Shown here piece after piece: positions 12,720 to 36,225 of a DNA stretch of 64,000 nucleotides. Each line of letters opens with the position of its first letter. Position 1 is the stretch's first letter. Position numbers and translations under genes: made by a program. The notes under the pieces were generated by a model, which had not been told where the DNA came from, did not search any database, and saw only the letters and a program-made list of their open reading frames with translations. The DNA is from Candidatus Rokuibacteriota bacterium (lineage in GTDB: Bacteria; Methylomirabilota; Methylomirabilia; Rokubacteriales; CSP1-6). Location: contig JAUSJX010000078.1 in the NCBI GenBank assembly GCA_030647435.1, positions 40,878 through 104,877 on the forward strand, in the 5' to 3' direction.

Positions 12720-13261
<542 letters not shown>

Positions 13262-13272
<11 letters not shown>

Positions 13273-28140: not shown

Positions 28141-31640
<3,500 letters not shown>

Positions 31641-31686
31641 GGGATCACGCTTGACATGATATGCATTCTATACATATACTGGGGGC

Positions 31687-31970
31687 GTGGAGTTCGAGTG
31701 GGCCGGGCCAAACGAGAACACAATATCCGATCCCACGGCGTGGATTTCACGGAGGCGGCAAACACGTTTGACGACAGGCACGCGTCCTTCCAGTTCGACG
31801 GACGGCACTCCCTAGCGGAGGACCGATTCTTCCTCCTCGGCAAGACGCGGACTGGCCAATTGCTCATGACGGTCTTCACCTGGAGGGGCGTCAAGATTCG
31901 CATCATCTCGTCACGCCGGGCAAGCCGGCAGGAGGCCACTGGTTATGAGGAAAGAATTCGACTTCAGTAA
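31687..31970 (+). pseudogene. brnT: BrnT-family (DUF497) toxin gene with an apparent -1 frameshift after codon 7 (near 31705-31710)
   Basis: The GTG-EFEW N-terminus (after GGGGG) is in one frame. KREHNIRSHGVDFTEAANTFDD..IRIISSRRASRQE continues in the -1 frame. Alignment to brnT at 12750 places the break at one codon. Confidence 0.55.
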
Positions 31971-32283
31971 GGCGCGGCGGTCCGAGTTCTGGAAACACAT
32001 GCCGCCCCCGGACCAGCTCGCCCGCCACACTAAGGAGCGGATCACGATCTTCATCGACCTCGACATCTTGAACTTTTTCAGGGCCAGGGCGGCCAAGCGC
32101 GGCAAGCCGCCGTACCAGACCCAGATCAACCAGGCCCTGCGCGAGTACATGGAGGGCAGCCCTCCCCCGGGCAAGGGCGCCTTGGTCGCTGACGAGAAGC
32201 TCATCTCGCGGCTTGCCGAGCGGATCGCCGAGTACTCGACCACGAAGCGGAAGAAGCGTCGGGCGAAGAAGGCCAAGGCCTAG
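31945..32283 (+). CDS. brnA: BrnA-family antitoxin (ribbon-helix-helix)
   Basis: MRKEFDFSKARR N-motif and an RHH segment (ITIFIDLDILNFFRARAAKRGKPYQTQINQALREYM). It overlaps the brnT 3' end. Confidence 0.7.
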   Translation: MRKEFDFSKARRSEFWKHMPPPDQLARHTKERITIFIDLDILNFFRARAAKRGKPPYQTQINQALREYMEGSPPPGKGALVADEKLISRLAERIAEYSTTKRKKRRAKKAKA

Positions 32284-32286
32284 GTC

Positions 32287-33567
32287 CTACCACCCGACGA
32301 AGAGCGTTTCCGGCGCTTCGAGGCGGCGGATAATGGCTTGGGCAAAGCGCGCGCCGTCCGCGCCGTCGGCCACGCGGTGGTCGAAGGTCAGGGTGATCGG
32401 CAGCATCATGCGCGCCACAATCTGGCCGCCCCGCACGACGGGCTCCTCCCTGCCCCGCGCGACGGCGAGGATCGCCACTTCCGGGTAATTGATGATGGGA
32501 ATGGCGCCCGTGCCGCCGAGCGCGCCGATATTGGTGATCGTGAAGGTGCCGCCGCGGAGGTCGTCGAGCGCCGCCTTGCCGTCGCGCACCCGCTGGGCGA
32601 GCGCCGCAAGCTCGCGGGCGATGTCCATGACGGGCTTCGTGTCCACGTCGCGGATCACCGGGACGATGAGGCCCCGGTCCGTCGCCACGGCGATGCCGAG
32701 GTGGCAGTAGCGCTTGAGGATCAGCTCCCCCGCCCCGGCATCGAGGCTCGCGTTGAACTGCGGGTGCTCGTGGAGCGCCAGCGCCGCCGCCTTGAGGAGG
32801 AAGCTCGTGAGCGTCAGCGTGATGCCGCGCTGCTTGGCCGCCTCGAAGCTTCGCGTGACGATGGCGTTCAGATCGGTGACGTCGGCCTTGTCGAAGTGGG
32901 TCACGTGCGGGATCAGCGCGGCCGACAGCGCCATGCGCTCGGCAATGGTGCGGCGCAGATGCGAGAGCGGCTGGCGCTCGACGGGCCCCCACTGCTCGAA
33001 CTTGGGCAAGGGCGGCGGCTCGAGCCCGACGGCGGCGAGCGGCTTGGCCGGGCCCGCGGGAGCGGCGGCGCGCGCGGGCGCCCCGGGCTCCCCAGGCGCG
33101 CCCGAGGGCGTGCCCGCGCTCGCGCGCACGTCGTCGTCGGTGATGCGGCCCCCGGGGCCCGTGCCGCGCACGGCCTGAAGCTCCACGCCCAGCTCGCGCG
33201 CGAGGCGCCGCGTCGCGGGCGCGGCCGCAACCGGCCCGCCGTCGACGCGTGGCGCCGGCTTGGGCAGCGCCGCCGGCCCCGCCGATGCGGCAGCCGCGGG
33301 GGCAGAGCGTGCCGGCGCCGCCGTGCCACCGCCATCGGCGAAGCTCACGAGCGGCTGGCCGACCTTGACGGTCTGTCCGGGCTGGACATGGATCTTCTCC
33401 ACGCGCCCGGCGAAGGGCGACGGGATCTCGACCTGCGCCTTGTCGGTCTCGACCTCGAGGAGCGGCGAGTCCTCCTTCACGACGTCGCCCTCGTGGACCA
33501 GGACGGCGCGGATTTCGGCTTCGATCAATCCCTCGCCGAGATCTGGCAGGACAAAAGTGCGCGCCAT
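32287..33567 (-). CDS. Dihydrolipoamide acyltransferase (E2) of a 2-oxoacid dehydrogenase complex
   Basis: Lipoyl domain (VETDKA), Ala/Pro-rich linkers, an E3-binding domain, and a catalytic domain with DHRVADGA. Confidence 0.9.
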   Translation of the reverse strand: MARTFVLPDLGEGLIEAEIRAVLVHEGDVVKEDSPLLEVETDKAQVEIPSPFAGRVEKIHVQPGQTVKVGQPLVSFADGGGTAAPARSAPAAAASAGPAALPKPAPRVDGGPVAAAPATRRLARELGVELQAVRGTGPGGRITDDDVRASAGTPSGAPGEPGAPARAAAPAGPAKPLAAVGLEPPPLPKFEQWGPVERQPLSHLRRTIAERMALSAALIPHVTHFDKADVTDLNAIVTRSFEAAKQRGITLTLTSFLLKAAALALHEHPQFNASLDAGAGELILKRYCHLGIAVATDRGLIVPVIRDVDTKPVMDIARELAALAQRVRDGKAALDDLRGGTFTITNIGALGGTGAIPIINYPEVAILAVARGREEPVVRGGQIVARMMLPITLTFDHRVADGADGARFAQAIIRRLEAPETLFVGW

Positions 33568-33668: not shown

Positions 33669-34649
33669 CTAGAAGGCCAGGGTCTCGCGGGCGGCGGCAA
33701 GGACGCGCGCGACGTCAGGCACGTTCGCCTTCTCGCGCGCGAAGCCTGGGAAGGGCACGTCGTAGGCCGCGACCCGGCGGATGGGCGCCTCAAGCGAGAG
33801 GAAGGCGCCCTCCATGATGCTGGCCGCGATCTCGGCGCCGGGGCCGAAGCTCCGCGGCGCCTCGTGGACGATGACGGCGCGCCCGGTTTTGGCGACGGAG
33901 GCCGTCAGCGTCTCGCGGTCGAGCGGCGAGATGGTCAGCAGGTCGATGACCTCGGGCGCCACGCCGTCCTCCGCCTGGAGCGTTTCCGCCGCCTCGAGCG
34001 CCACCCGCAGCATCGCGCCGTAGGCGATCAGGGTCAGCCCCCGCCCCTCGCGGACGACCTGCGCCCTGCCGATGGGCATGGCCTCGCTCTCGTCGGGCAC
34101 TTCCTCCTTGGACGCGTGGTACAGCGCCTTGTGCTCGAAGAAGACGACGGGGTCGGGGTCGCGGATCGCGGCGACGAGCAGCGCGCGCGCCGTGCGCGGC
34201 CCCGACGGGATGACCATCTTGAGCCCGGGGATGTGGGCGTAGAACTGCTCCTCGCTCTCGGAGTGGTGCTCGAGCGCGCGGACGCCGCCGCCGAACGGCA
34301 TGCGGATCACCATCTGGCAGTGGAAGCGCCCCTGGCTGCGCTGGCGGTAGCGCGCGGCGTGGTTCTCGATCTGGTGAAAGCACTGGAAGGCGAAGCCGGA
34401 GAACTGGATCTCGCAGACGGGCTTGAGCCCGTAGAGCGCCATGCCGACCGAGCAGCCGATGATGGCCGCCTCGGCGAGCGGGCTGTCGATGACGCGGGTG
34501 CCGCCGAAGCGCCGGTGCAGGTCCTCCGTCACGCGGAAGACGCCGCCATCCACGCCCACGTCCTCGCCGATGATGAGCACGTCCGGGTCCCCCTCCATCT
34601 CCTCGAGGAGGGCCAGGTTCAGCGCCTTGACCATGTTCAGCTTTGCCAT
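33669..34649 (-). CDS. 2-oxoacid dehydrogenase E1 component beta subunit
   Basis: Transketolase-like Pyr and C-terminal domains, typical of E1beta. Confidence 0.9.
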   Translation of the reverse strand: MAKLNMVKALNLALLEEMEGDPDVLIIGEDVGVDGGVFRVTEDLHRRFGGTRVIDSPLAEAAIIGCSVGMALYGLKPVCEIQFSGFAFQCFHQIENHAARYRQRSQGRFHCQMVIRMPFGGGVRALEHHSESEEQFYAHIPGLKMVIPSGPRTARALLVAAIRDPDPVVFFEHKALYHASKEEVPDESEAMPIGRAQVVREGRGLTLIAYGAMLRVALEAAETLQAEDGVAPEVIDLLTISPLDRETLTASVAKTGRAVIVHEAPRSFGPGAEIAASIMEGAFLSLEAPIRRVAAYDVPFPGFAREKANVPDVARVLAAARETLAF

Positions 34650-34660
34650 GCGGCGCGCCG

Positions 34661-35080
34661 TCAGTCCCTCACGATGTGCATGATGGCGCCGGTCACCGCG
34701 GCAGGCAGCACGGTCAGCGCGAGGATGCGCAGGAGGGATGGCCCGAGCGCCTCGATCCGGTCGAGATCCGAGTGACCGGCGGCCAATCCGGCGCGGACGA
34801 TCCAGAGAAAGACGTCCACGAGGGCGACCGCCGGAGCCATGAACCAGCCGCGGCGCGGGACGCAGAAGCCCACGACGGCGGCGCCGAGCCCTATCAGCAC
34901 GGGGCGGCCCAGGTCATTCACCGCGCGCTCGACGCCCGAGCCCTGGTACTGCAGGCCCGGCACGTGCGCGAGGGCGAAATCCACGGCGAACGGCGCGACC
35001 CAGGCCAGGGCGCCCAGGCACACGGCGAAGAAAAAGAGCTCCCGGCGGCTGAACGGGTGCTCCGGCTTGATGACGATCAA
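34661..35080 (-). CDS. Hypothetical integral membrane protein (about 140 aa, 4 predicted TM) embedded between E1alpha and E1beta
   Basis: The TTG start overlaps the E1alpha TGA stop (TTGA). Hydrophobic segments are present. No family was recognised. Confidence 0.45.
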   Translation of the reverse strand: MIVIKPEHPFSRRELFFFAVCLGALAWVAPFAVDFALAHVPGLQYQGSGVERAVNDLGRPVLIGLGAAVVGFCVPRRGWFMAPAVALVDVFLWIVRAGLAAGHSDLDRIEALGPSLLRILALTVLPAAVTGAIMHIVRD

Positions 35081-36225
35081 TTCTGCCAACGGCTCGTCCT
35101 CCGCTGGCCCCGCATCGGGGGCGAGACGGGCTCGGAGCCGGCGGGCGCGGTGGCGTCCGCCGCGGCTTCCAGGCGCCCCGCCAGCTCCGCGCGCTCGGCC
35201 GCCACGTCCGGCGGCAGCTCCGCGTACGCGTGGTCGAACATGCCGAGCGGGTCGGCGGCCGGCACCGCCTCGAAGCGCTCGACGGCGCGGGCGATCTCCT
35301 CGTCCACCTGCTCGTCCACCGAAGGGTCGATCAATCCCTTCTTCTCGAGGTAGGCGCGGAAGCGCGTCAGCGGGTCCTTCTGCTCCCAGGCCTTGACCTC
35401 TTCGTCCGAGCGGTACTTGGTCGGGTCGTCCGCCGTCGTATGCACGCCGAGACGATACGTGACGCACTCGATGAGCGTCGGCCCCTCCCCCGCCCGCGCC
35501 TTGTCGACGGCGTCCCGGCTCGCCGCGTAGACTGCCAGCACGTCGTTGCCGTCCACCTGGATGCCGGGGAAGCCGTAGGCCAACGCCTTCTGGGCGATCG
35601 TGCGCGAGTTGGTCTGCTTCTTGAGCGGCACGGAGATGGCCCACTGGTTGTTCTGGCAGACGAAGACCACGGGCACGTGCCAGACGCCGGCGAAGTTACA
35701 CGCCTCGTGGAAGTCGCCTTCGGAGGTCGCGCCGTCGCCGAAGTAGACCATGACCACCGCGTCCTCGCCCCGGTACTGGATGCCGTACGCGATGCCCACC
35801 GCGTGAGGCAGCTGGGTCGCCACGGGAATGGTGATGGGCAGGTCGCGCTGCTCGGGGCCCGGCTGGCTGCCCTCGAGCCGGCCGGCGAAGAGCGCCAGGA
35901 TCTTCTCGATGGGCCAGCCGCGCCAGAGCATGGACGCCGTCTCGCGGAAGGAGGGCACCATCCAGTCGGTGGGCCTGAGCGTGAAGACACTGCCCATCTG
36001 CGAGGCTTCCTGCCCCTTGATCGGCGCGAAGGTGCCGATCCTGCCCTGGCGCTGGAGCTTGAGCATCCGCTCGTCGAGGCGCCGGCCCAGCACCATGGCG
36101 CGGTAGAGCCGCTTGAGGTCATCGGGGGAGAGCTTGGGCTCGAGCTTGGCGTCGAGCGTGCCGTCGCTGTCCAGGATGGACAGGCGCTCGGTGGGGAATT
36201 GCGGCTCGATCTGGGTCCTGGGCAT
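35077..36225 (-). CDS. 2-oxoacid dehydrogenase E1 component alpha subunit (ThDP-dependent)
   Basis: ThDP motif GDGATSEGDFHEACNFAGVWHVPVVFVCQNNQWAIS. Confidence 0.9.
   Translation of the reverse strand: MPRTQIEPQFPTERLSILDSDGTLDAKLEPKLSPDDLKRLYRAMVLGRRLDERMLKLQRQGRIGTFAPIKGQEASQMGSVFTLRPTDWMVPSFRETASMLWRGWPIEKILALFAGRLEGSQPGPEQRDLPITIPVATQLPHAVGIAYGIQYRGEDAVVMVYFGDGATSEGDFHEACNFAGVWHVPVVFVCQNNQWAISVPLKKQTNSRTIAQKALAYGFPGIQVDGNDVLAVYAASRDAVDKARAGEGPTLIECVTYRLGVHTTADDPTKYRSDEEVKAWEQKDPLTRFRAYLEKKGLIDPSVDEQVDEEIARAVERFEAVPAADPLGMFDHAYAELPPDVAAERAELAGRLEAAADATAPAGSEPVSPPMRGQRRTSRWQN

What the first reader, a model, noticed from the sequence alone, without database searches (positions are those of the whole stretch)
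31640..32290. Second BrnT/BrnA module inserted antisense inside the 2-oxoacid dehydrogenase operon, with a frameshifted toxin
Between the E2 stop (32287) and the lpdA start (31640), both on the minus strand, the plus strand carries a BrnT-like ORF and an intact BrnA with a clear RHH. The BrnT N-terminus (GTG-EFEW) and the rest (KREHNIRSHGVDF...IRIISSRR) are in different frames, and the break maps to a single codon near 31705-31710. The module is wedged so that the brnA stop is 3 nt from the E2 stop and brnT starts 47 nt from lpdA. That positioning allows transcriptional interference with a core catabolic operon, and the toxin is either inactivated or needs a frameshift.
Basis: seen in the sequence. 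Interest (0 to 1): 0.6.

Follow-up and report, generated by a model that had tools for sequence, protein, structure and literature searches.

The report
Broken toxin-antitoxin pair inside metabolic operon
A small BrnT/BrnA toxin-antitoxin cassette sits backwards between two genes of a 2-oxoacid dehydrogenase operon in a soil Methylomirabilota (Rokubacteria) genome, and its toxin gene has been killed by a real one-base deletion, which is an ordinary case of toxin-antitoxin decay in an unusually conserved place.

Summary
On the plus strand, 31687-32283 carries brnT (Pfam PF04365, 2e-22) and an intact brnA (PF14384). They lie between lpdA (30243-31640, minus) and E2 (32287-33567, minus). Aligned with a 93%-identical intact homologue in the same context, the window lacks one A between 31702 and 31703. 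That base belongs to the codon matching catalytic Asp6 of Brucella BrnT. It is not a homopolymer slip. A separate Logan assembly that differs by 4 SNPs carries the same deletion.

The cassette is not a one-off. Eighteen further related loci, all Methylomirabilota/Rokubacteria where a source names the organism (one MAG is labelled Acidobacteria), show the same lpdA | brnT-brnA | E2 layout. One relative has the empty site (E2 TAG-cgcc-ATG lpdA). Across these loci brnT is disrupted in 6 of 16 by six different lesions, and brnA in 0 of 18. Both genes are otherwise under purifying selection (dN/dS about 0.2 and 0.15).

Best reading: a recently toxin-dead type II module, with BrnA still made and probably repressing a near-consensus, apparently leaderless promoter that fires head-on into the operon. 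I found no support for programmed frameshifting. Transcriptional interference is geometrically unavoidable but untested. This is a new member of a known kind, of modest interest.

The parts
31651..31680 (+). PbrnT promoter-like site: -35 TTGACA (31651-31656), 18-nt spacer, -10 TATACT (31675-31680). The -10 ends 6 nt before the GTG, which predicts a leaderless brnT mRNA.
   Evidence: 11 of 12 consensus matches, and the only site on either strand in 31300-32600 (shuffles average 0.0). The same site with the same 18-nt spacer is found in L002, L004, L007 and L168. It is aligned across 13 loci, with 5-8 nt between the -10 and the start codon.
31658..31678 (.). Putative BrnA operator. It is an imperfect inverted repeat, GATATGCAT-TCT-ATACATATA (clade consensus TATATGCAT-N3-ATGCATATA), lying in the spacer and overlapping the -10.
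   Evidence: Read directly. The two 9-nt arms are perfect in L006 and L008 and match at 7 of 9 in the window. Binding by BrnA is inferred from the known autoregulation of BrnTA (PMC5086665).
31687..31970 (+). brnT pseudogene. GTG 31687 opens MEFEW. A 1-nt deletion between 31702 and 31703, in the Asp6 codon, shifts the frame. The frame-1 ORF stops at 31815, and the rest of the BrnT domain runs 31704-31970 in the other frame.
   Evidence: PF04365, 2e-22, profile positions 4-77; alignment to intact L002 and to Logan contig L001; Asp6 equivalence with 3U97; the model's two best PDB matches are 7VD7 and 3U97.
31689..31700 (+). GGAG (31689-31692), then 5 nt, then GTG (31698-31700). This is a possible alternative start that the deletion brings into frame. 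It would give a 90-aa BrnT lacking residues 1-6 (MGRAKREHN...).
   Evidence: Read; ORF translation. The same GGAG...GTG is present but out of frame in intact relatives, so it is a by-product of the coding sequence and not an adaptation. Whether it is used is unknown.
31930..32283 (+). brnA antitoxin gene (ATG 31945 to stop 32281-32283, 112 aa) with its own AGGAGG (31930-31935) 9 nt upstream. It overlaps the brnT 3' end by 26 nt.
   Evidence: PF14384, 2.1e-12; intact at 110-113 aa in every related locus, with an invariant PYQTQINQALREY and a conserved C-terminal helix and basic tail.
32287..33567 (-). E2 dihydrolipoamide acyltransferase. Its stop codon lies 3 nt from the brnA stop, and the two genes converge.
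   Evidence: Biotin_lipoyl, E3_binding, 2-oxoacid_dh.
30243..31640 (-). lpdA (E3, dihydrolipoyl dehydrogenase). It diverges from brnT, starting 46 nt away, and its stop overlaps the start of a fadB-like gene (28141-30246) by 4 nt.
   Evidence: TIGR01350 above its cut-off.
33669..36225 (-). Upstream operon genes E1-beta (33669-34649) and E1-alpha (35077-36225).
   Evidence: Transket_pyr with Transketolase_C; E1_dh.

Best explanation
The locus is a type II BrnT/BrnA toxin-antitoxin cassette of about 645 bp. It was inserted, in the opposite orientation, into the 4-nt gap between E2 and lpdA of a 2-oxoacid dehydrogenase/beta-oxidation operon in a Methylomirabilota (Rokubacteria) lineage.

In this genome a genuine 1-nt deletion has inactivated the toxin. 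The lost base is the A of the GAC codon for Asp6, a residue needed for RNase activity and toxicity in Brucella BrnT. The deletion separates the start codon and the first five codons from the rest of the domain. The antitoxin gene, its own Shine-Dalgarno sequence, the near-consensus promoter and the palindromic operator are all intact.

Inferred operation:
1. PbrnT produces a leaderless transcript.
2. Ribosomes starting at the 5' GUG make a 42-aa nonsense peptide.
3. BrnA is translated independently and represses PbrnT through the operator.
4. No active RNase is made.

This is one of several independent, recent toxin-killing events in a cassette that is otherwise kept under purifying selection and shuffled by recombination across the clade. 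It is the standard toxin-first erosion of a chromosomal toxin-antitoxin module.

Shown: identity, position, the lesion, its recurrence in relatives, the empty site, and the selection statistics. Inferred: the leaderless start, BrnA autorepression, loss of toxicity, and read-through transcription of lpdA across the cassette.
For: - **Family assignment.** Pfam matches for both genes are well above their cut-offs. The model of the frame-2 product finds the two BrnT-family structures, 7VD7 and 3U97, as its top PDB hits.
- **The lesion.** Alignment to intact L002 (a Methylomirabilota MAG whose BrnT is 93% identical, in the same context) shows a single missing A at 31702/31703.
- **Second assembly.** Logan contig L001 from SRR13727527 carries the identical deletion, yet differs from the window at 4 positions in E2.
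- **Residue affected.** The alignment to 3U97 equates the deleted codon with Asp6. Asp6, Glu7, Lys9, Arg41 and Glu78 are required for activity (PMC5086665, citing Heaton 2012).
- **Conserved context.** The lpdA | brnT-brnA | E2 layout holds in all loci recovered through BrnA or BrnT and in L170, which was found through lpdA.
- **Empty site.** L171 and L172 have E2 and lpdA adjacent with no cassette.
- **Toxin and antitoxin decay differently.** brnT is disrupted in 6 of 16 loci by different lesions, brnA in 0 of 18 (Fisher p = 0.006). lpdA and E2 show no frameshifts in the same loci.
- **Selection.** Median dN/dS is 0.20 for brnT and 0.15 for brnA.
- **Known pattern.** Toxin-first pseudogenisation is the documented erosion route (PMC13617665 section 13; PMC7167474).
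Against: - I could not inspect raw reads, and L001 may derive from the same or a related sample, so it is not fully independent evidence.
- The deletion puts a GTG (31698), preceded by GGAG, in frame with the remaining 88 codons. Those codons are still fully open, so an N-terminally truncated BrnT could be made and keep some function.
- With so recent a lesion, the intact brnA says nothing about whether BrnA is still under selection in this genome.
- The requirement for Asp6 comes from a distant homologue (20 bits to 3U97).
Confidence: 0.8

Rival explanations
1. Sequencing or assembly artefact: the real genome has TGGGACCGG and an intact 94-aa toxin.
For: No read-level data were available. Metagenome-derived assemblies can carry indels. 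The downstream frame is perfectly open and 93% identical to an intact homologue.
Against: The lost base is a lone A, not part of a homopolymer. A separately built Logan contig that differs from the window by 4 SNPs elsewhere has the same deletion. E1-alpha, E1-beta, E2, lpdA and the fadB-like gene of this window each read as one uninterrupted ORF with near full-length Pfam domain matches. Relatives show five other independent brnT lesions, so disruption of this gene is biologically common.
Confidence: 0.07
2. Attenuated rather than dead toxin: translation starts at GTG 31698 (GGAG 5 nt upstream) and gives BrnT lacking residues 1-6. This product still binds BrnA, for example as a co-repressor, or keeps weak RNase activity.
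For: The deletion places this GTG in frame. The 90-aa product still matches 74 of the 77 profile positions. The equivalents of Lys9, Arg41 and Glu78 are retained. The four-stranded sheet and C-terminal helix are still predicted.
Against: Trp5 and Asp6 are lost, and Asp6 is required for toxicity in Brucella BrnT (PMC5086665). The first 15 residues of the model have pLDDT below 50. The GGAG...GTG motif is present in all intact relatives, where it is out of frame, so it was not selected as a start. On a leaderless mRNA the 5' GUG would compete for ribosomes.
Confidence: 0.1
3. Programmed recoding: a -1 ribosomal frameshift or transcriptional slippage restores full-length BrnT at low level.
For: Only that the two halves are separated by a single-base shift and both remain open.
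Against: There is no X XXY YYZ heptamer and no A/T run between 31687 and 31712. None of the 15 other loci shares the shift, and the closest relatives are simply in frame. Other relatives are broken in quite different ways.
Confidence: 0.01
4. Domesticated regulator: the cassette persists because BrnA and PbrnT act as a head-on transcriptional valve on the operon. They would control how much lpdA-fadB is made relative to E1/E2. The toxin is dispensable, and BrnA must be kept to silence a strong antisense promoter.
For: The position is exactly conserved (3 nt from the E2 stop, 46-60 nt from the lpdA start in the loci checked) across loci whose lpdA is only 74-96% identical to the window's. PbrnT is the only promoter-like site in each of the five cassettes scanned, and none of them has a minus-strand promoter for lpdA. 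brnA is intact in 18 of 18 loci against 10 of 16 for brnT.
Against: brnT is itself under purifying selection clade-wide (dN/dS 0.2), as expected of an ordinary addictive module. A relative with the empty site exists, so the operon works without the cassette. Toxin-first decay with temporary retention of the antitoxin is the default pattern for any toxin-antitoxin module (PMC13617665). There are no expression data.
Confidence: 0.1

Closest known systems
[quoted passage not shown]
   Same: The gene order is toxin first, with overlapping genes. The toxin has a DUF497/BrnT domain and the antitoxin a BrnA RHH-type domain. A palindromic sequence overlaps the promoter, consistent with autorepression by the complex. 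The N-terminal W-D-x-x-K motif aligns residue for residue (PMC5086665).
   Different: Here the toxin ORF is broken in the Asp6 codon. Position 7 is Arg, not Glu, throughout this clade. BrnA carries a conserved extension of about 40 aa (a helix and a Lys/Arg tail). The predicted mRNA is leaderless with a GUG start. The cassette sits antisense inside a catabolic operon.
Decay of chromosomal toxin-antitoxin modules, e.g. ccdO157 in E. coli (Mine et al. 2009, cited in PMC7167474) and Photorhabdus toxin-antitoxin erosion (PMC13617665)
   Same: The module sits at a fixed chromosomal site shared by related genomes. Occupied and empty sites both occur. Independent toxin-inactivating mutations recur while the antitoxin stays intact.
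   Different: The host is an uncultivated soil phylum. The site is inside an operon rather than between operons or in a high-turnover spot. Both genes still show purifying selection clade-wide. The toxin allele is mosaic relative to its flanks (brnT is 94.6% identical where the flanks are about 82%).
Convergent or head-on transcriptional interference and antisense control by embedded genes (general mechanism)
   Same: A strong promoter is oriented against the operon's direction of transcription, and no terminator-like element was found in the window between them.
   Different: There is no experimental evidence here. It is only a geometric possibility.

Membership tests
BrnT toxin (Pfam PF04365 / DUF497) | Domain match above the Pfam gathering score | tested here: met
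BrnT toxin (Pfam PF04365 / DUF497) | BrnT fold (four-stranded antiparallel sheet packed against helices, as in 3U97 and 7VD7) | tested here: met
   four strands and a C-terminal helix are predicted. The two best PDB hits are 7VD7 (E = 4e-4, TM 0.56) and 3U97 (E = 0.013). The model's confidence is only moderate (pLDDT 68).
BrnT toxin (Pfam PF04365 / DUF497) | One uninterrupted ORF from the start codon through the N-terminal F-x-W-D motif | tested here: not met
   a 1-nt deletion between 31702 and 31703 separates MEFEW from the rest, and the frame-1 ORF ends at 31815.
BrnT toxin (Pfam PF04365 / DUF497) | Residues needed for RNase activity in Brucella BrnT (Asp6, Glu7, Lys9, Arg41, Glu78) | tested here: not met
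   alignment with PMC5086665: the Asp6 codon is destroyed. Position 7 is Arg in this clade. The equivalents of Lys9, Arg41 and Glu78 are present.
BrnT toxin (Pfam PF04365 / DUF497) | Ribonuclease activity and growth arrest, neutralised by BrnA | not testable with these tools
   This needs expression assays.
BrnA antitoxin (Pfam PF14384) | Domain match above the gathering score, with an RHH-like core | tested here: met
   47.7 bits against a cut-off of 26.1, residues 6-69. The invariant core is RITI...PYQTQINQALREY.
BrnA antitoxin (Pfam PF14384) | Encoded immediately downstream of, and overlapping, the brnT gene | tested here: met
   ATG 31945 lies 26 nt inside the brnT 3' end. The arrangement is the same in all relatives.
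BrnA antitoxin (Pfam PF14384) | Binds and represses its own promoter | tested here: inconclusive
   A conserved inverted repeat, TATATGCAT-N3-ATGCATATA, overlaps the -10. Binding itself was not tested.
Functional (addictive) type II toxin-antitoxin module | Both an active toxin and a cognate antitoxin are encoded | tested here: not met
   The toxin ORF is disrupted and the antitoxin is intact.
2-oxoacid dehydrogenase complex operon (E1-alpha, E1-beta, E2, E3) | All four components are encoded on one strand, and E2 and E3 are adjacent in relatives that lack the cassette | tested here: met
   for the domains. Searches show the empty-site relative L171, with E2 and lpdA 4 nt apart. Substrate specificity was not determined.
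Programmed ribosomal frameshift or transcriptional slippage gene | A slippery motif at the shift site, and the shift conserved in homologues | tested here: not met
   There is no X XXY YYZ heptamer or A/T run at 31687-31712. The shift is absent from all 15 other loci.

The most novel reading that the evidence does not exclude
In this Rokubacteria clade the BrnTA cassette has been co-opted as a regulatory insert. BrnA-controlled, leaderless PbrnT fires head-on into E2-to-lpdA read-through and produces RNA antisense to the E2 3' end. This would set the ratio of lpdA/fadB to E1/E2 expression, for example under stress when BrnA is degraded. The toxin is expendable, and BrnA is retained because losing it would unleash a near-consensus antisense promoter inside an important catabolic operon.
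Probability: 0.1. Interest if true: 0.6.

Novelty: new member of a known kind. Interest (0 to 1): 0.3.

Why it matters
For annotating this genome, the practical result is that 31687-31970 should be called a brnT pseudogene (a 1-nt deletion in the Asp6 codon) next to an intact brnA. It should not be called a recoded gene or a sequencing error.

More broadly, the clade offers a natural series for studying how chromosomal toxin-antitoxin modules erode. It includes an empty site, intact cassettes, and six independently toxin-dead cassettes at one exactly conserved position inside an operon. The series also bears on whether an antitoxin and its promoter can be kept for their effect on neighbouring genes. 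Toxin-first decay itself is well documented, so the result confirms existing views and does not change them.

Tried and rejected
- **Programmed frameshift or slippage.** No slippery motif, and the shift is not conserved.
- **Homopolymer error.** The deleted base is a lone A.
- **Known RNA element in the region.** Only one sub-threshold Rfam match, 20.8 bits against a gathering score of 56.8.
- **NCBIfam.** No model matched BrnT or BrnA, so membership rests on Pfam and the fold.
- **Phage or mobile-element vector.** Scanning viral contigs with the BrnT alignment found no relative. I saw no obvious direct or inverted repeat at the cassette boundaries when comparing them by eye with the empty site; no repeat search was run across both boundaries.
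- **Separate promoter for lpdA inside the cassette.** No minus-strand sigma-70-like site in the window or in four relatives. Other sigma factors are not covered by that scan.
- **The 76-aa 'VDF...' BrnT proteins in the database as evidence of N-terminal disruption.** The DNA shows a mixture. L003 is a true nonsense mutation. L167 has lost its start codon and carries an 18-nt deletion. L004 and L168 are intact genes with miscalled starts. L166 is cut by a contig end. No DNA was available for P0009.
- **Primary literature.** The Heaton 2012 paper was not held, so residue data are cited through the review PMC5086665.
Full report
**1. What is in the sequence**

Reading 31400-32500 and listing ORFs shows two minus-strand genes flanking a plus-strand pair.
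- lpdA is at 30243-31640. It has the Pyr_redox_2 and Pyr_redox_dim domains and matches TIGR01350 at 489 bits against a cut-off of 409.
- E2 is at 32287-33567, with lipoyl, E3-binding and 2-oxoacid_dh catalytic domains.
- Upstream on the same strand lie E1-beta (33669-34649) and E1-alpha (35077-36225).
- Downstream of lpdA, overlapping its stop codon, is a 701-aa enoyl-CoA hydratase/3-hydroxyacyl-CoA dehydrogenase (28141-30246).

Between lpdA and E2 the plus strand carries two genes.
- brnT begins at a GTG at 31687 that opens MEFEW. After a frame change, 88 further codons match Pfam BrnT_toxin (79.7 bits, cut-off 34.5, profile positions 4-77 of 77).
- brnA is an intact 112-aa ORF at 31945-32283 that matches BrnA_antitoxin (47.7 bits, cut-off 26.1).

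Adding a single base gives a full-length BrnT match (profile positions 1-77). G+C falls from about 70% in the flanks to 57-60% in the cassette. The only adjustment is the position of the break, which is 31702/31703 rather than 31705-31710.

**2. Nature of the break**

The closest protein in the large database, P0001, is an intact 94-aa BrnT from a Methylomirabilota MAG. It is 93% identical and begins MEFEWDRAKREQN. Its contig, L002, has the same gene order: lpdA(-), brnT, brnA, E2(-).

The DNA alignment shows GAGTGGGACCGGGCC in L002 against GAGTGGG-CCGGGCC in the window. One A is missing, and it is flanked by GGG and CC, so this is not a homopolymer-length error.

A Logan assembly of run SRR13727527 (L001) encodes the identical BrnA and carries the same deletion. 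It differs from the window at four positions in E2, so it is a distinct assembly or strain. I could not see reads, and an artefact therefore remains possible, but it is unlikely.

The deleted codon aligns with Asp6 of Brucella abortus BrnT. Asp6, Glu7, Lys9, Arg41 and Glu78 are the residues reported as important for RNase activity and toxicity (review PMC5086665, citing Heaton et al. 2012; the primary paper was not available).

**3. The cassette is a conserved resident of this site**

Every close relative I recovered has the same lpdA | brnT-brnA | E2 arrangement.
- Loci found through BrnT proteins: L002-L005 and L166-L169.
- Loci found through BrnA in species-representative genomes: L006-L010. 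They are Rokuibacteriota/Methylomirabilota MAGs, one of them labelled Acidobacteria.
- Loci found in metagenomes: L086-L088.

The flanking lpdA of these loci is 74-96% identical to the window's, and E2 68-97%.

Two look-ups starting from lpdA instead of the toxin-antitoxin genes gave one occupied site (L170) and one empty site (L171 and L172, lpdA 83% identical). In the empty site the E2 stop and the lpdA start are separated only by cgcc, and there is no cassette.

The insert is about 645 bp and contains nothing beyond a promoter and the two genes. Comparing the boundaries by eye with the empty site, I saw no obvious flanking repeat; no repeat search was run across both boundaries. The BrnT alignment found no relative in viral contigs.

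**4. Recurrent toxin loss**

I read the brnT region of each locus by hand.

| State of brnT | Loci |
|---|---|
| -1 nt at codon 6 | window (= L001) |
| GGA to TGA nonsense at codon 18 | L003 |
| +1 C at about codon 30 | L005 |
| Start codon GTG to GCG, with an in-frame stop just upstream | L008 |
| GTG to GCG plus an 18-nt deletion | L167 |
| 2-nt deletion that removes the RIISSRR motif | L169 |
| Intact | L002, L004, L006, L007, L009, L010, L087, L088, L168, L170 |
| Cut by a contig end | L086, L166 |

brnA is intact (110-113 aa) in all 18 loci. Six of 16 against 0 of 18 gives Fisher p = 0.006. lpdA and E2 show no frame breaks in the same loci.

Several 76-aa 'VDF...' proteins in the database looked at first like further N-terminal disruptions. 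Some of them are only miscalled starts (L004, L168).

Within the 94-aa BrnT clade, pairwise Nei-Gojobori dN/dS has a median of 0.20 for brnT and 0.15 for brnA. The toxin is therefore normally under purifying selection, and the lesions are recent events on terminal branches. In the closest pair with one broken member (L002 and L005), brnT has 1 synonymous and 5 non-synonymous differences, while brnA has 3 and 1. This hints at relaxed constraint, but the counts are tiny.

**5. Mosaicism**

Between the window and L002, nucleotide identity is 82% in lpdA, 94.6% in brnT and 82.6% in brnA. dS is 0.15 for brnT and 0.64 for brnA. Conversely, L006-L008 have a BrnA about 80% identical to the window's but a BrnT only 46-51% identical.

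brnT GC3 is 0.67-0.76, against 0.85-0.95 in the host genes.

The toxin gene is thus exchanged among relatives independently of its flanks, most simply by homologous recombination. That could repeatedly replace dead alleles, which would reconcile frequent lesions with long-term constraint. This last step is an inference.

**6. Expression signals**

The only sigma-70-like site on either strand in 31300-32600 is TTGACA-18 nt-TATACT at 31651-31680 on the plus strand (11 of 12 matches; shuffles average 0.0). The same single site occurs in L002, L004, L007 and L168.

Across 13 aligned loci, the -10 ends 5-8 nt before the start codon (6 nt in the window). This predicts a leaderless mRNA beginning at the GUG.

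The spacer and the -10 contain a conserved inverted repeat, TATATGCAT-N3-ATGCATATA. It is perfect in L006 and L008 and matches at 7 of 9 in the window (31658-31678). It is the obvious candidate for the BrnA operator, since the BrnTA complex represses its own promoter in Brucella (PMC5086665).

brnA has its own AGGAGG 9 nt upstream (31930-31935), so it does not depend on brnT translation.

I found no minus-strand promoter for lpdA within the cassette and no terminator-like hairpin in the window. lpdA-fadB is therefore probably transcribed by read-through from E2, antisense across brnA and brnT and head-on through PbrnT. This geometry makes interference possible in every member of the clade, but nothing here measures it. 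There was no Rfam match of note.

**7. Could the toxin still be made?**

- *Programmed frameshifting is unsupported.* There is no slippery heptamer or A/T run, and no relative shares the shift.
- *An alternative start exists.* The deletion brings an internal GTG (31698), preceded by GGAG at a 5-nt spacing, into frame. The product would be a 90-aa protein lacking residues 1-6. The same GGAG...GTG is present but out of frame in intact relatives, so it is incidental.
- *The truncated product is probably inactive.* AlphaFold on the 41-sequence alignment gives a moderate model (pLDDT 68). It has a four-stranded sheet and a C-terminal helix, and its first 15 residues are disordered. Its two best PDB matches are the BrnT-family structures 7VD7 and 3U97. 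Such a product would lack Trp5 and Asp6 and is most likely non-toxic, though it might still bind BrnA.

**8. Comparison with what is known**

The module is a member of the BrnT/BrnA family by domain, fold, gene order and promoter architecture. As a functional toxin-antitoxin system it fails the test of an intact toxin.

The evolutionary pattern is the documented route of chromosomal toxin-antitoxin erosion: a fixed chromosomal site, occupied and empty alleles, and independent toxin-killing mutations with the antitoxin retained. Examples are ccdO157 in E. coli (cited in PMC7167474) and Photorhabdus, where 185 copies were toxin-only pseudogenes and 8 were antitoxin-defective (PMC13617665, section 13).

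Four features are less usual:
- the position inside an operon, antisense, conserved to the nucleotide across a broad uncultivated clade;
- the predicted leaderless GUG start;
- continued purifying selection on the toxin clade-wide;
- exchange of the toxin allele independently of its flanks.

**9. Verdict**

This is a new member of a known kind and of modest interest (0.3).

The most novel reading not excluded is that the BrnA/PbrnT cassette serves as a head-on transcriptional valve on lpdA-fadB. I put that at about 10%.

Noticed in passing
window 12750-13272: The 'first' BrnT copy (12750-13025, 91 aa) is intact and matches PF04365 at 4.5e-25, but is only 36% identical to the operon copy. Its overlapping downstream partner (12994-13272, 92 aa, containing ...[14 protein letters not shown]...) has no Pfam or NCBIfam match. 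That module therefore pairs BrnT with a different or unrecognised antitoxin.
   Followed up: partly
window 34661-35077 (-): The 427-nt gap between E1-alpha and E1-beta holds an open frame of about 135 codons. It encodes a very hydrophobic protein that looks like it has four transmembrane segments, and it has no Pfam match. AT skew reaches about 0.5 at 34700-34999. Relatives L004, L168 and L171 instead carry a 120-aa cupin gene between E1-beta and E2, so small accessory inserts in this operon vary.
   Followed up: no
L008 3742-3744 and L167 (brnT start): Two loci from different BrnT sub-clades independently carry GCG in place of the GTG start codon, each with an in-frame stop two or three codons upstream. 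On a leaderless mRNA this would abolish initiation.
   Followed up: partly
window 31687-32283 compared with L002, L006-L008: The cassette is mosaic. brnT and brnA have discordant divergence (dS 0.15 against 0.64 between the window and L002). Two BrnT sub-clades, only 46-51% identical to each other, pair with BrnA proteins that are 80% identical. brnT GC3 (0.67-0.76) is well below that of host genes (0.85-0.95).
   Followed up: partly
window 32150-32283 (BrnA residues 70-112): BrnA has a C-terminal extension of about 40 aa beyond the Pfam domain. It consists of a conserved helix (KLISRLAERIAEY) and a Lys/Arg-rich tail (KRKKRRAKKAKA), and several positions are invariant across the clade. On the minus strand the tail's codons read as a T-rich run, which in L004 and L168 scores as a terminator-like hairpin just after the E2 stop.
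   Followed up: no
L087 (brnT codon about 72): This otherwise intact BrnT has Cys in place of the Arg that is invariant among the 41 aligned homologues (KICIISS instead of KIRIISS). It may be a missense inactivation.
   Followed up: no
L007 5631-6534: E1-beta of this curated Rokubacteria scaffold matches in two different frames, which suggests a frameshift in that gene or assembly.
   Followed up: no
window 32900-33300: G+C reaches 80-84% in the Ala/Pro-rich linker region of E2.
   Followed up: no
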